The position numbers were made by a program. Positions 10,001 to 13,000 of a stretch of 64,000 bases of DNA are shown here, in pieces. The stretch lies in NCBI RefSeq assembly GCF_002854065.1, contig NZ_CP024147.1. One strand, written 5' to 3'. The stretch's first letter is position 1, and every line of letters starts with the position of its first letter. The stretch is from Escherichia coli (GTDB lineage Bacteria; Pseudomonadota; Gammaproteobacteria; Enterobacterales; Enterobacteriaceae).

Positions 10001-13000
10001 TATAAGTGCGCTCGATGCCGCGATGCAGATATAGCCGTCCGCGTAAATTAGCTGATGCTGTCCAGGTACCATCTTTGTGTTTGACCAGCATTCCTGGCAT
10101 GACCGCACCGCGATTAACGGTCTGCGTTCCGTAATGTTGATGAACCATAAAAACTCCTGCCCGTAAGCTGGGCTGCTGAACATATAAAGACTTCTGGGTA
10201 ATGACTCCAACTTATTGATAGTGTTTTATGTTCAGATAATGCCCGATGACTTTGTCATGCAGCTCCACCGATTTTGAGAACGACAGCGACTTCCGTCCCA
10301 GCCGTGCCAGGTGCTGCCTCAGATTCAGGTTATGCCGCTCAATTCGCTGCGTATATCGCTTGCTGATTACGTGCAGCTTTCCCTTCAGGCGGGATTCATA
10401 CAGCGGCCAGCCATCCGTCATCCATATCACCACGTCAAAGGGTGACAGCAGGCTCATAAGACGCCCCAGCGTCGCCATAGTGCGTTCACCGAATACGTGC
10501 GCAACAACCGTCTTCCGGAGCCTGTCATACGCGTAAAACAGCCAGCGCTGGCGCGATTTAGCCCCGACGTATCCCCACTGTTCGTCCATTTCCGCGCAGA
10601 CGATGACGTCACTGCCCGGCTGTATGCGCGAGGTTACCGACTGCGGCCTGAGTTTTTTAAATGGCGGAAAATCGTGTTGAGGCCAACGCCCATAATGCGG
10701 GCGGTTGCCCGGCATCCAACGCCATTCATGGCCATATCAATGATTTTCTGGTGCGTACCGGGTTGAGAAGCGGTGTAAGTGAACTGCAGTTGCCATGTTT
10801 TACGGCAGTGAGAGCAGAGATAGCGCTGATGTCCGGCAGTGCTTTTGCCGTTACGCACCACCCCGTCAGTAGCTGAACAGGAGGGACAGCTGATAGAAAC
10901 AGAAGCCACTGGAGCACCTCAAAAACACCATCATACACTAAATCAGTAAGTTGGCAGCATCACCTCTGGGTTGAGCGTATTTTAATCAGTAGTATCTTTT
11001 ACAAAATAAAGAGTATTCAATAATGAAAATTTTAATGATGATCGTGGCAGTTTCAGTATTGGCTGGCTGCACAAGTGACACCCGCTCGATGTGGCATAGC
11101 CGTTATGCATTCAAGACTGTCGGTCAGGTCTCTGCAATGTGTGATGATGGCGATCGTGACGCTTGCTATGCAGCTCGCGATATGGGGGCAATGCAGGTTG
11201 GCCTTAATCAAGCAAATCAGACCATTCAACAGCAGCAAGCTCAGCAGGCAGCTATCGATGCGGCTAACAGACCGATTACAACTAATTGTAATCCCACGAT
11301 AAATGGCGGAATGAGTTGTACCACCTACTAAACTGGTGCGAGAGTTAGTAGCGCCATGAACATTGTTAAGTCGAATGTCTTTATGAAACATTCTAGTACT
11401 TTAAAGCTGCCCCACTTACTCGCCTGACAAACGCACAGCAGGTGGTTTATTGGGTTTGAAAATATCTAAAAATAAGAGGGGGTGAAGTAATGGATGATTT
11501 TGAATCTTACGTGAAGTATTGGGAAGGAAAAAAAATTGAAGATCATGAGCGTCAACTAGATGATCTTGTACGGAGAGAGACTGAGATTTCGCAAGGAGAA
11601 AGCGGGCATGGAAGATTAAGTTTTATCGCACAGCAAATCAATTTTCACCGTAACAAACTGGAAAATTTACGCTTCAGTGGTGATTTGTACTAATTTGATT
11701 TTCCATAATCAACTCGCCATAATCATGTCATCGGAGCCTGAACAACTCCGGTGACTTCTGCGCTAAACGGGGACGTTTATGCGCACATACAATCTAAATT
11801 CTCTTCTCCCTTCACAGATGCAGAAATGCACCTGCGATTTTTTGCATCCAGCGTTTGACCTCTGCGGAGGTGAAGCGTGAACCTCCCACAAGACGGCATC
11901 AAATTACATCGCGGTAACTTCACCGCTATCGGTCAGCAGATCCAGCCTTATCTGGAGGACGGCAAATGCTTTCGCATGGTGCTTAAACCGTGGCGCGAAA
12001 GACGCAGTCTTTCCCAGAATGCACTCAGCCACATGTGGTACAGCGAAATCAGTGAGTACCTCATCAGCAGGGGGGAATCGTTCGCTACTGCAGCATGGGT
12101 AAAAGATGCTCTCAAACACACATACCTCGGTTATGAAACCAAGGACCTGGTTGATGTCGTAACCGGCGAAGTCACTACGATCCAGTCGTTACGCCATACC
12201 TCCGATCTTGATACCGGAGAGATGTATGTCTTCCTGTGTAAGGTTGAAGCCTGGGCGATGAATATTGGCTGCCGCCTGACTATTCCGCAGAGCTGCGAGT
12301 TCCAGCTGCTGCGCGACAAGCAGGAGGCGTAATGACTACACCGCTTATTCGGGTCATGAACGGACACATCTACAGAGTACCAAATCGTCGTAAGCGTAAG
12401 CCTGAGCTGAAGCCATCCGAAATACCAACACTGCTAGGGTATACCGCCAGCCTGGTTGATAAAAAATGGTTGCGACTGGCAGCAAGGAGGAATCATGGCT
12501 GATTTGAGAAAAGCAGCGCGTGGTCGGGAATGCCAGGTAAGAATCCCTGGCGTATGTAATGGCAATTCTGAGACGTCTGTACTGGCACATATCCGGCTGG
12601 CTGGATTGTGCGGTACCGGTATCAAACCGCCAGACCTGATTGCCACCATTGCATGTTCTGCCTGTCACGACGAAATCGACCGCCGCACACATTTTGTCGA
12701 TGCTGAGTATGCAAAAGAATGCGCGCTGGAAGATATGGCGAGAACACAGGTTATCTGGCTGAAAGAGGGGGTTATTAAGGCGTGAATACCTACAGCATCA
12801 CATTACCCTGGCCTCCGAGCAATAATCGCTATTACCGCCATAATCGCGGGCGCACGCACATCAGCGCAGAGGGGCAGGCATACCGCGATAACGTCGCCCG
12901 AATCATTAAAAACGCAATGCTGGATATCGGCCTGGCTATTCCTGTGAAAATCCGCATTGAGTGTCACATGCCGGATCGCCGTCGCCGTGACCTGGATAAT

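What the first reader, a model, noticed from the sequence alone, without database searches (positions are those of the whole stretch)
11023..11693. Prophage lipoprotein and small ORF upstream of ninB, where replication genes would normally lie
Seen: a 102-aa lipobox protein (Gln/Ala-rich, Cys-rich tail) and a 67-aa ORF with a good ribosome-binding site lie between IS1 and ninB. Inference: phage-encoded small envelope lipoproteins often mediate superinfection exclusion or serum resistance (Cor- or Bor-like roles); function here is unknown.
Basis: inference. Interest (0 to 1): 0.35.

Follow-up and report, generated by a model that had tools for sequence, protein, structure and literature searches.

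The report
Stranded prophage outer-membrane lipoprotein cargo gene
A small, strongly conserved but uncharacterised outer-membrane lipoprotein gene carried as cargo by lambda-like prophages sits here in its normal slot, cut off when an IS1 element deleted the neighbouring immunity and replication genes; its function is unknown, and the 67-aa ORF beside it is an unrelated, unproven neighbour.

Summary
Both ORFs are at the stated coordinates. The 102-aa ORF (11023-11331) is a real gene. It has a canonical lipobox (LAGC, Cys16, Thr at +2, which predicts the outer membrane) and four further invariant cysteines. Purifying selection is very strong (dN/dS 0.02-0.05). It does not replace the replication genes. 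In intact relatives the order is cI-cro-ydaT-O-P-ren-lipoprotein-orf67-ylcH-ybcN. In the window, IS1 (10197-10964) replaces 5,604 bp of a near-identical strain, from beyond kil through ren plus a conserved element upstream of the lipoprotein gene. A sister strain has lost the lipoprotein gene too.

The protein belongs to a very small orphan family. It has no Pfam, PHROG, NCBIfam or PADLOC match, no copy in 50,697 phage genomes, and no homology to Cor or Bor beyond the signal peptide. It occurs in lambdoid prophages of E. coli, Klebsiella and Enterobacter that carry different replication and virion modules. Citrobacter rodentium has a stand-alone chromosomal copy next to an omptin gene.

The most likely role is an envelope-acting accessory lipoprotein, possibly in phage exclusion; this is inferred, not shown. 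The 67-aa ORF is confined to one lineage, is separable from the lipoprotein gene, and is unproven as a gene. Ordinary to moderately interesting.

The parts
10197..10964 (-). IS1 (768 bp; insA 10909-10634, insB 10715-10212). It replaces 5,604 bp of the prophage: two hypothetical genes, the cI-like repressor, cro, ydaT, O, P, ren and the lipoprotein gene's conserved upstream element.
   Evidence: Sequence read; ORFs. It is 100% identical to other IS1 copies. Strain 100416 (L034) is 100% identical on the left flank and 99.94% on the right flank, and has L034 3397-9000 in place of the IS1. There is no target-site duplication (AGACTTCTG versus TCTGGGTTG), which fits an IS1-adjacent deletion.
10965..11022 (+). 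The 58 nt of native ren-lipoprotein intergenic DNA that remain, including a weak ribosome-binding site (AAAGAG). The conserved upstream element ATGATGAGCAGCATCATAAT would end 6 nt to the left of 10965 and is missing.
   Evidence: Alignments of upstream regions. L034 8985-9015 reads GCATCATAATTCCATA|TCTGGG. No promoter-like site on the + strand was reported here.
11023..11331 (+). Lipoprotein gene, 102 aa. Signal peptide is codons 1-15 (11023-11067). The lipid-modified Cys16 is at 11068-11070. The mature protein is 87 aa, with a CX7C helix pair, a Gln/Ala-rich helix and a C-terminal CX9C beta-hairpin.
   Evidence: ORF; family alignment with invariant C16, C40, C48, C89, C99; lipobox rule. dN/dS is 0.025 against L014/L015, 0.048 against Klebsiella and 0.018 against Enterobacter; against C. 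rodentium there are 54 synonymous and 10 nonsynonymous differences. AF2 secondary structure: H33-41, H45-79, E87-91, E97-101, at low confidence (pLDDT 63). RefSeq WP_074468307.1, 'hypothetical protein'.
11334..11356 (+). Small hairpin just after the stop codon (UGGUGC-N11-GCGCCA). It is kept in L014/L015 as UGGCGC...GCGUCA. It has no U-run, so it is not a canonical terminator.
   Evidence: Read. The fold of the whole intergenic region is no better than shuffles (z = -0.24).
11383..11427 (+). A 14-codon remnant (MKHSSTLKLPHLLA*) of the 88-aa ORF that follows the lipoprotein gene in other prophages. The mosaic breakpoint lies at about 11412.
   Evidence: Alignment with L014/L015, whose 88-aa ORF starts MKQSNTSTLPTVEQ. 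Megablast homology ends at window position ~11411.
11413..11693 (+). Low-GC (about 38%) replacement segment carrying the 67-aa ORF (11490-11693), which has a strong ribosome-binding site. The predicted product is cytoplasmic and forms a two-helix hairpin. It is a candidate gene only.
   Evidence: ORF; GC content. AF2 single-sequence model: H3-35, H40-63, pLDDT 75. The only homologues are copies at least 97% identical, always in the same YdaT-O-P-ren-lipoprotein-orf67-ylcH-ybcN block. No family, phage or informative fold match. ORF length alone gives p~0.04.
11694..11876 (+). Conserved structured leader upstream of ybcN. RefSeq annotates a 33-aa ylcH-like ORF at 11779-11880 inside it. It marks the right boundary of the variable cargo slot.
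   Evidence: About 3,000 E. coli genomes match only from about 11690 rightwards. Fold z-score is -4.78. Hairpins are conserved and covarying. A terminator-like site lies at 11819-11836.
11877..12332 (+). ybcN (Orf/NinB-family gene), the first gene of the nin region.
   Evidence: Pfam NinB E=1.2e-4; RefSeq 'YbcN family protein' WP_032280915.1.

Best explanation
The 102-aa ORF is a genuine, strongly constrained accessory ('moron-like') gene of lambdoid prophages.

Predicted pathway (inferred from sequence). The product would be exported by Sec and lipidated at Cys16. Lsp would then cleave the signal peptide and, because residue +2 is Thr, Lol would sort the protein to the outer membrane. The 87-residue mature part carries two probable disulfides, C40-C48 and C89-C99. 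It would hang from the inner face of the outer membrane.

Proposed role (inferred). The near-invariance of the mature sequence argues that it binds a conserved envelope component. The most likely consequence is modulation of the cell surface or blocking of phage entry (superinfection exclusion), to the benefit of the lysogen.

Local anatomy (shown). The gene's native position is the cargo slot between ren and ybcN/ninB. In this window it is a stranded copy. An IS1-associated deletion removed 5.6 kb, comprising immunity genes, O, P, ren and the gene's own conserved upstream element. The copy is therefore probably poorly expressed or silent, and it is on the way to loss.

The 67-aa ORF is a separate segment restricted to one lineage. 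It replaced a different downstream neighbour and is not functionally tied to the lipoprotein.

Confidence by step: anatomy and deletion history 0.9; real, exported outer-membrane lipoprotein 0.85; accessory envelope function that benefits the host 0.55; specifically phage exclusion 0.3.
For: Shown:
- ORF and lipobox.
- Purifying selection. 18 synonymous versus 2 nonsynonymous differences to L014/L015, both nonsynonymous changes in the signal peptide. 54 versus 10 to C. rodentium, with pS 0.82 and pN 0.04. Against distant homologues pS is 0.6-0.9 and pN 0.21-0.33.
- Five invariant Cys, and no Asp at +2 in any family member.
- Gene order cI-cro-ydaT-O-P-ren-lipoprotein-orf67-ylcH-ybcN in intact relatives. 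Phage lambda has only 73 nt between ren and ninB. GC is lower in the insert, 0.38-0.46 against about 0.52.
- The deletion is mapped to L034 3397-9000.
- Further erosion in other strains. CUWW06 lacks window 10965-11626. In JNE23-001 the gene is split by IS3.
- The gene moves independently of replication modules (lambda O/P; P22-like gp18 plus DnaB, L014). It also moves independently of virion modules (lambda-like packaging genes in L001; contractile tail in L012).
- It is retained in degraded Enterobacter prophages beside a YadA-like adhesin. It also stands alone in the C. rodentium chromosome, between fliE and an omptin gene, where homology covers the gene only. This argues for host benefit and expression independent of phage promoters.
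- A conserved element 60-75 nt upstream travels with the gene in all these contexts.
- The 67-aa ORF is separable.

Precedent: small phage lipoproteins that exclude phages in a receptor-specific way (PMC11893012).
Against: - There is no experimental or homology evidence for any function. All family, solved-structure and fold searches were empty.
- The AF2 model has low confidence (pLDDT 63).
- No convincing sigma-70 promoter or terminator flanks the gene. Scans are at or below chance level and the -35 region is weak. Expression in lysogens is therefore unproven.
- In the lambdoid prophages the gene is co-oriented with the pR operon and could be a lytic-cycle gene.
- Unlike Cor, Llp and the mEp Lpp proteins, it is not next to a receptor-binding protein gene and does not co-vary with tail type. 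This argues against self-receptor masking.
- It is rare: 20 of 5,426 complete E. coli genomes, 3 of 2.9 million IMG/VR contigs and 0 of 50,697 phage genomes.
- It has been lost or disrupted repeatedly in E. coli, so any benefit is conditional.
Confidence: 0.55

Rival explanations
1. Lytic-cycle envelope factor. The lipoprotein would be made only as a delayed-early product of the pR operon after induction or infection. It would act transiently, for example by blocking superinfection or re-adsorption of progeny as T5 Llp does, or by conditioning the envelope before lysis. It would not be a lysogenic-conversion gene.
For: The gene is co-oriented with O-P-ren and immediately downstream of them in E. 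coli and Klebsiella prophages. No convincing autonomous promoter or terminator was found. Divergent homologues sit inside early or middle gene clusters of uncharacterised phages, abutting neighbouring genes (L003, L005).
Against: The C. rodentium copy lies outside any phage operon yet is under strong purifying selection. The gene is retained in degraded prophages. A gap of more than 100 nt with a conserved upstream element precedes the gene, in contrast to the 4-nt overlaps among O, P and ren. One homologue sits next to an integrase gene, with about 600 nt of upstream intergenic DNA (L004).
Confidence: 0.2
2. Host-interaction or virulence-type surface factor. This would be Bor/Iss-like in role (serum or antimicrobial-peptide resistance, adhesion, outer-membrane stabilisation), with no role in phage-phage competition.
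For: Its neighbours in accessory zones are outer-membrane virulence-type cargo: an omptin gene in C. rodentium and a YadA-anchor adhesin in Enterobacter. It is fixed in a chromosomal island of an enteric pathogen (149 contigs).
Against: There is no homology to Bor (no Pfam Bor hit). The adjacency to omptin is convergent and seen in one species only. The family is otherwise confined to phage contexts.
Confidence: 0.2
3. In this window the locus is simply an inert remnant. Both ORFs would be transcriptionally orphaned passengers of a decaying cryptic prophage, doing nothing in this strain. This is compatible with any ancestral function.
For: pR, N, the immunity genes and the conserved upstream element are deleted. 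IS1 transcription points away from the gene. No promoter-like site was found on the + strand between 10965 and 11490. The sister strain CUWW06 has lost 10965-11626, and JNE23-001 carries an IS3 insertion. The prophage also lacks lysis and virion genes and is riddled with IS1.
Against: Both reading frames are intact and identical to those of intact relatives. A weak native promoter (TTGAGC-17-TATCTT, 8 of 12 matches, read by eye) or read-through transcription cannot be excluded.
Confidence: 0.5
4. The 67-aa ORF is not a gene. It would be a chance open frame in an AT-rich recombination filler.
For: An ORF of this length arises in 4% of shuffles. There are no homologues other than near-identical copies and no match in any library. 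No nucleotide variation is available for a test of selection. The predicted helical hairpin is a generic fold.
Against: It has a strong Shine-Dalgarno sequence at the proper spacing. The frame is kept intact at 67 aa in all ten cluster-member variants. AF2 predicts two long helices at pLDDT 75 from the single sequence.
Confidence: 0.35
5. The ORFs are fragments or derivatives of replication-module proteins.
For: None beyond their position next to the place where O, P and ren used to be.
Against: Intact relatives have complete O, P and ren plus both ORFs. No family hits. The protein has a signal peptide, a lipobox and conserved cysteines.
Confidence: 0.01

Closest known systems
Cor (HK022 / phi80 / N15 / T1 superinfection-exclusion lipoprotein)
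   Same: A small, phage-encoded protein with a lipobox signal peptide. It is accessory cargo of lambdoid phages and is presumed to act at the outer membrane.
   Different: No homology beyond the signal peptide (hhalign aligns 18 columns, probability 33%). Cor lies downstream of the J tail-tip gene (HK022 18738-18971), whereas this gene lies between ren and ybcN. This gene also occurs with unrelated virion types. Exclusion activity is untested.
Bor / Iss (lambda serum-resistance lipoprotein)
   Same: About 100 aa, lipobox, prophage cargo, expressed to the host's benefit in the case of Bor. Several carrier prophages also encode a true Bor elsewhere.
   Different: No homology (hhalign probability 6%, signal peptide only). 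Bor lies after the lysis genes on the opposite strand. The predicted fold is helical with one beta-hairpin.
T5 Llp and the mEp(immI) Lpp exclusion lipoproteins
   Same: Small disulfide-containing outer-membrane lipoproteins. They inactivate the phage's own receptor from the periplasmic side. This mechanism is the best available analogy (PMC11893012 for Lpp; Llp from general knowledge).
   Different: Those genes sit beside the receptor-binding or structural genes and match the phage's receptor. No sequence match was found in 50,697 phage genomes. No receptor association could be found here.
Rz1-type o-spanins
   Same: Small outer-membrane lipoproteins of phages. A weak PHROG hit covers the signal peptide only (E=0.14).
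   Different: This gene is not in or next to a lysis cassette. Carrier prophages have their own Rz/Rz1 genes. The protein is not Pro-rich and there is no partner i-spanin.
Classical 'moron' elements of lambdoid phages (Hendrix/Juhala definition; PMC3594210)
   Same: Extra DNA between two genes that are adjacent in a relative (ren and ninB are 73 nt apart in lambda). It has lower GC and a patchy distribution, and is retained during prophage decay.
   Different: An autonomous promoter and terminator, part of the definition, could not be demonstrated. Only a conserved upstream element with a -10-like CATAAT was found.

Membership tests
Bacterial lipoproteins (Lgt/Lsp/Lnt pathway) | N-terminal signal peptide with a basic n-region, an uncharged h-region and a lipobox [LVI][ASTVI][GAS]C, with the Cys within about the first 35 residues | tested here: met
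   MKILMMIVAVSVLAG-C16. The rule-based test matches the window protein and 12 of 13 family members. Cys16 is invariant. The weak Pfam LPAM_1 hit (13.1 bits against a cutoff of 20) is typical for so short a motif.
Bacterial lipoproteins (Lgt/Lsp/Lnt pathway) | Actual lipidation and Lsp (globomycin-sensitive) cleavage | not testable with these tools
   Needs labelling or a globomycin experiment.
Outer-membrane (Lol-sorted) lipoproteins of Enterobacteriaceae | No Asp at position +2 (the inner-membrane retention signal) | tested here: met
   The +2/+3 residues are T-S in the window. All homologues tested have T, S or A at +2 (CTSD, CTND, CSSD, CASV).
Cor superinfection-exclusion family | Sequence homology of the mature protein to Cor | tested here: not met
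   The hhalign comparison of A1 with HK022 Cor aligns only residues 2-19, the signal peptide and lipobox.
Cor superinfection-exclusion family | Gene located in the tail-fibre or host-range region downstream of J | tested here: not met
   Cor is at HK022 18738-18971, after the J-like gene. This gene lies between ren and ybcN.
Cor superinfection-exclusion family | Exclusion of FhuA-dependent phages | not testable with these tools
   Needs plating and adsorption assays.
Bor/Iss family | Sequence homology to lambda Bor (Pfam Bor family) | tested here: not met
   No Pfam hit. The hhalign comparison with lambda Bor gives probability 6%, signal peptide only.
Rz1 / o-spanin | Encoded within or next to the i-spanin gene in the lysis cassette | tested here: not met
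   The gene is located upstream of ybcN. Carrier prophages have separate rzpD/lysC genes after the endolysin gene.
Moron (independent transcription unit inserted between conserved phage genes) | Inserted between genes that are adjacent in related phages, with deviant base composition | tested here: met
   In lambda, ren and ninB are 73 nt apart; here about 920 nt separate ren from ybcN. GC is 0.38-0.46 against about 0.52 in the flanks. About 3,000 E. coli genomes share only the DNA from about 11690 onwards.
Moron (independent transcription unit inserted between conserved phage genes) | Own promoter and own terminator | tested here: inconclusive
   No consensus promoter or terminator was found above chance. 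A conserved upstream element with CATAAT travels with the gene, even into a non-phage context. A post-stop hairpin is present but lacks a U-run.
   PF05772 E=1.2e-4, 22.4 bits, just under the 23.8 cutoff. RefSeq 'YbcN family protein'. YbcN is treated as an Orf-family member in PMC4118853.
IS1 | 768-bp element with insA/insB and terminal inverted repeats; 8-11 bp target duplication on simple insertion | tested here: met
   The element 10197-10964 is 768 bp, has insA and insB, and is 100% identical to other copies. The target duplication is absent, as expected for an adjacent deletion rather than a simple insertion.

The most novel reading that the evidence does not exclude
The lipoprotein would define a new family of small outer-membrane lipoproteins. 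The family is phage-borne but also domesticated in Citrobacter rodentium. Its architecture is a lipid anchor, an invariant 40-residue segment with an Asp-rich CX7C loop, a Gln-rich helix of variable length, and a variable CX9-10C hairpin. Such a protein would bind a conserved envelope machine. It would thereby give a previously undescribed mode of superinfection exclusion or envelope protection that does not depend on the carrier phage's own receptor.
Probability: 0.3. Interest if true: 0.5.

Novelty: new member of a known kind. Interest (0 to 1): 0.28.

Why it matters
If the lipoprotein proves to be an exclusion or envelope-protection factor, it would add a sequence-unrelated family to the short list of phage lipoproteins that act at the outer membrane (Cor, Llp, Bor, Rz1). 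Its extreme conservation across four genera would point to a conserved host target worth identifying.

The locus is also a clean natural series of prophage decay driven by IS1. Strain 100416 is intact; the window lacks 5.6 kb; CUWW06 lacks a further 662 bp. The series shows which cargo outlives the phage's own genes.

As it stands the finding is mostly explanatory. The missing replication genes are accounted for, and the ORFs are annotated hypothetical proteins already present in RefSeq.

Tried and rejected
- Family assignment. Pfam, PHROGs, NCBIfam and PADLOC gave nothing beyond signal-peptide noise for either ORF or for the 33-aa ORF.
- Remote homology. A word-indexed search of 5.8 billion clusters found 10 lipoprotein clusters and, for orf67, only itself. 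An exhaustive HMM search of 1.84 billion representatives found 4 proteins. tblastn against 50,697 phage genomes found nothing for the lipoprotein, its L005 paralogue or orf67. IMG/VR yielded 3 near-identical loci.
- Structure. The AF2 model of the lipoprotein is weak (pLDDT 63). Foldseek against PDB and BFVD gave no hit with E below 0.3. A PDB profile search gave only PulS at E=3.1, not significant. The orf67 model matches only generic helical hairpins. The afdb50 library was unavailable.
- Cor or Bor membership: rejected.
- Spanin: rejected on position.
- Replication-protein fragment: rejected.
- IS1-created hybrid promoter. By eye, no usable -10 lies at the right distance from the IS1-end TTGGCA. 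A native TTGAGC-17-TATCTT matches only 8 of 12 positions. Neither passes the scan.
- Terminator after the lipoprotein gene: none found.
- A partner gene conserved across contexts: none. Neighbours differ in every context. The only recurring relative is a tandem paralogue in L005.
- Rfam families in 10900-12000: none.
- Literature. Searches by accession numbers, for ylcH, and for the context of the C. rodentium omptin gene croP all found nothing relevant.
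Full report
**What is at the coordinates**

The window around the finding is the early region of a defective lambdoid prophage of E. coli. The genes, in order, are:
- exo (8102-8782, minus strand), bet (8779-9564, minus strand), gam (9570-9866, minus strand) and a kil-type cell-division inhibitor (9942-10148, minus strand);
- IS1 (10197-10964, minus strand);
- a 102-aa ORF (11023-11331), a 67-aa ORF (11490-11693) and a 33-aa ORF annotated in RefSeq (11779-11880);
- ybcN (11877-12332), ninE, ybcO, rusA, ylcG and a Q antiterminator.

The 102-aa product begins MKILMMIVAVSVLAG-C16. This is a textbook lipoprotein signal with the lipobox LAGC, and residue +2 is Thr. Positions 58-82 are Gln/Ala-rich, and the protein ends in a CX9C segment. 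The 67-aa ORF has a strong Shine-Dalgarno sequence (GAGGGGGTGA) 5 nt before its ATG. The gene called 'ninB' is YbcN, an Orf/NinB-family member.

**Why the replication genes are missing**

Twenty of 5,426 complete E. coli genomes carry the 10965-11900 stretch. In all of them the match starts exactly at the IS1 boundary. In those relatives the order is cI-like repressor, cro, ydaT, O, P, ren, lipoprotein (WP_074468307.1), orf67 (WP_087898273.1), 33-aa ORF, ybcN.

Strain 100416 carries the same prophage remnant. It is 100% identical on the left flank and 99.94% on the right. Its positions L034 3397-9000 (5,604 bp) stand where the window has IS1. The two IS1 flanks are not a target duplication. 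This is therefore an IS1-associated deletion, not a simple insertion.

The lipoprotein gene is thus in its native slot. The replication genes lay immediately to its left and were removed, along with the immunity region.

The erosion continues in other strains. CUWW06 is 99.98% identical over more than 12 kb but has IS1 abutting window position 11627. It has lost the lipoprotein gene and two thirds of orf67. In JNE23-001 the lipoprotein gene is split by IS3.

**Is the lipoprotein ORF a real gene?**

Yes.
- Homologues at 54-99% identity share Cys16, C40, C48, C89 and C99, and the block SMW..YAFK.VGQV.AMCDDGDRDACYAARDMGAM.
- Against L014/L015 there are 18 synonymous and 2 nonsynonymous differences (dN/dS 0.025). 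Both replacements are in the signal peptide, so the mature protein is unchanged at dS 0.34.
- Against the Klebsiella, Enterobacter and Citrobacter copies, synonymous sites approach or reach saturation (pS 0.28, 0.74, 0.82). pN stays at 0.02-0.06.
- Distant family members show pS 0.6-0.9 against pN 0.21-0.33.
- Four conserved cysteines in the mature part fit an oxidising, periplasmic location.
- No member has Asp at +2, which predicts Lol sorting to the outer membrane.
- AF2 gives only a low-confidence model (pLDDT 63): two helices bridged around the CX7C, a long Gln-rich helix, and a terminal beta-hairpin closed by C89/C99.

**What family is it?**

None that is described.
- Pfam, PHROGs, NCBIfam and PADLOC give nothing beyond signal-peptide noise.
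- PDB sequence and fold searches and BFVD are empty.
- The family is tiny: ten 90%-identity clusters among 5.8 billion and four 50%-identity representatives among 1.84 billion.
- There are no copies in 50,697 sequenced phages and three near-identical loci in IMG/VR.
- Profile comparison with HK022 Cor and lambda Bor aligns only the signal peptide and lipobox. It is not a member of either family.

**Where else it lives**

Copies at 92-99% identity occur in several settings.
- In E. coli and Klebsiella aerogenes prophages the gene lies directly after ren or P. In Enterobacter prophages it lies in the cargo zone downstream of the replication genes, beside a YadA-like adhesin.
- These prophages carry different replication modules (lambda-type O/P; P22-type gp18 plus DnaB). 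They also carry different virion modules: lambda-type packaging and portal genes in L001, and HK97-type head genes with a contractile tail in L012.
- In Citrobacter rodentium a copy sits in the chromosome between fliE and an omptin gene. No phage genes are nearby, and homology is confined to the gene plus 13 nt upstream (79% nucleotide and 92% amino-acid identity).
- More divergent members lie in uncharacterised phages among clusters of secreted proteins, next to an integrase gene, or next to a resolvase gene. One locus has a tandem paralogue.

The gene is therefore mobile cargo. It outlives its phage in several hosts, which argues for a benefit to the cell rather than a core phage function.

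**Expression**

No consensus promoter or terminator flanks the gene above chance. A 20-nt element, ATGATGAGCWGMATCATRAT, lies 60-75 nt upstream of the ATG in every context. It combines a 6-bp palindrome with a -10-like CATAAT. The contexts include the C. rodentium and Enterobacter copies, where all other flanking homology is gone. It may be the gene's promoter or operator.

In the window the IS1 junction falls 6 nt downstream of this element, so the element is deleted. IS1's own transcription points away from the gene. This copy is probably weakly expressed or silent. That is an inference.

**The 67-aa ORF**

It is a separate piece of DNA. L014, L015 and the Klebsiella prophages keep the lipoprotein gene but follow it with an 88-aa ORF and other small genes. 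The window retains only a 14-codon stump of that 88-aa ORF (11383-11427). The sequence then switches, at about 11412, to a 38%-GC segment carrying orf67.

Orf67 is found only in this one E. coli prophage block, always in the same context. No divergent homologue exists to test selection, and the module is nucleotide-identical among carriers. An ORF of this length arises in 4% of composition-matched shuffles. AF2 predicts a generic two-helix hairpin. It is a plausible small cytoplasmic protein gene because of its strong ribosome-binding site, but it is unproven.

**Most likely mechanism**

Shown: a constrained, exported, lipobox-bearing protein encoded by mobile prophage cargo.

Inferred: lipidation and sorting to the outer membrane, two disulfides, and binding of a conserved envelope component by the invariant N-terminal domain. 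The variable C-terminal hairpin may tune specificity.

The best analogy is the set of small phage lipoproteins that inactivate receptors from the periplasmic side (T5 Llp, Cor, and the mEp Lpp proteins of PMC11893012). Unlike those, however, this gene is not linked to a receptor-binding module or to a tail type. A self-receptor mask is therefore unlikely. I put phage exclusion at about 0.3, a host-interaction or envelope-protection role at about 0.2, and a purely lytic-cycle role at about 0.2. Independently of these, there is about an even chance that this particular copy is inert.

**Verdict**

The unusual placement is explained by an IS1 deletion. The lipoprotein is a new, uncharacterised member of the general class of prophage accessory envelope lipoproteins, and it is not Cor or Bor. 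Interest is modest (0.28).

Noticed in passing
window 11694-11876 (also L014 6984-7170, L015 3005-3193, L022 10318-10497): The leader upstream of ybcN/ninB is a conserved, strongly structured element (MFE z = -4.78, 0 of 200 shuffles). It holds a promoter-like TTGATT-17-CATAAT and an almost invariant 10-bp hairpin (GUCAUCGGAGCC..ACUCCGGUGAC). A second hairpin has three different, fully compensating stems that all close a GGGA loop. A GNRA-loop hairpin with a U-run follows. There is no Rfam match. RefSeq annotates a 33-aa ylcH-like ORF across it, but the substitutions in L012 do not show a coding pattern. It may be a terminator or antitermination module of the nin region.
   Followed up: partly
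window 10197-10964 and 10965-11626; L034 3397-9000; L008 13365/13366: The same prophage remnant appears in three successive states of IS1-driven decay. Strain 100416 is intact. The window lacks 5,604 bp. Strain CUWW06 lacks a further 662 bp, which removes the lipoprotein gene. CUWW06 also has IS2 in the integrase gene.
   Followed up: yes
L016 10001-10309 (Citrobacter rodentium chromosome): A 92%-identical copy of the lipoprotein gene stands alone between fliE and a convergent omptin-family gene (presumably croP). No phage genes are nearby. It is under strong purifying selection and looks like domesticated cargo.
   Followed up: partly
L001 8975-8994; L016 9913-9928; absent from the window (would lie just left of 10965): The conserved element ATGATGAGCWGMATCATRAT (palindrome ATGATG/CATCAT plus a -10-like CATAAT) lies 60-75 nt upstream of the lipoprotein start codon in all contexts. 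It is a candidate promoter or operator that travels with the gene.
   Followed up: partly
L005 6001-6315 and 6324-6596: In an uncharacterised phage the lipoprotein gene has a tandem paralogue (90 aa; lipobox, CX7C, C-terminal CX10C). The paralogue's C-terminal hairpin (TSCTPNIFGGMDCNTY) resembles the window protein's tail (TTNCNPTINGGMSCTTY) more closely than the tail of the neighbouring orthologue does. This hints at modular exchange of the hairpin.
   Followed up: no
window 13900-14424 (-) and downstream; IS1 copies at about 15789-16556 and 17624-18391: In place of lysis and virion genes, the Q antiterminator is followed by a Blc-like lipocalin lipoprotein gene and a YbgA-family gene. Two more IS1 copies come next. 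The prophage is truncated and heavily colonised by IS elements.
   Followed up: no
window 11334-11356: A hairpin lies immediately after the lipoprotein stop codon (UGGUGC-N11-GCGCCA). It is kept through paired changes in L014/L015 (UGGCGC...GCGUCA). It has no U-run and its role is unknown.
   Followed up: no
L010 2581-4000 (E. coli JNE23-001): The lipoprotein gene is interrupted by IS3 in this otherwise intact carrier prophage. This is a second independent inactivation of the gene by an IS element.
   Followed up: yes
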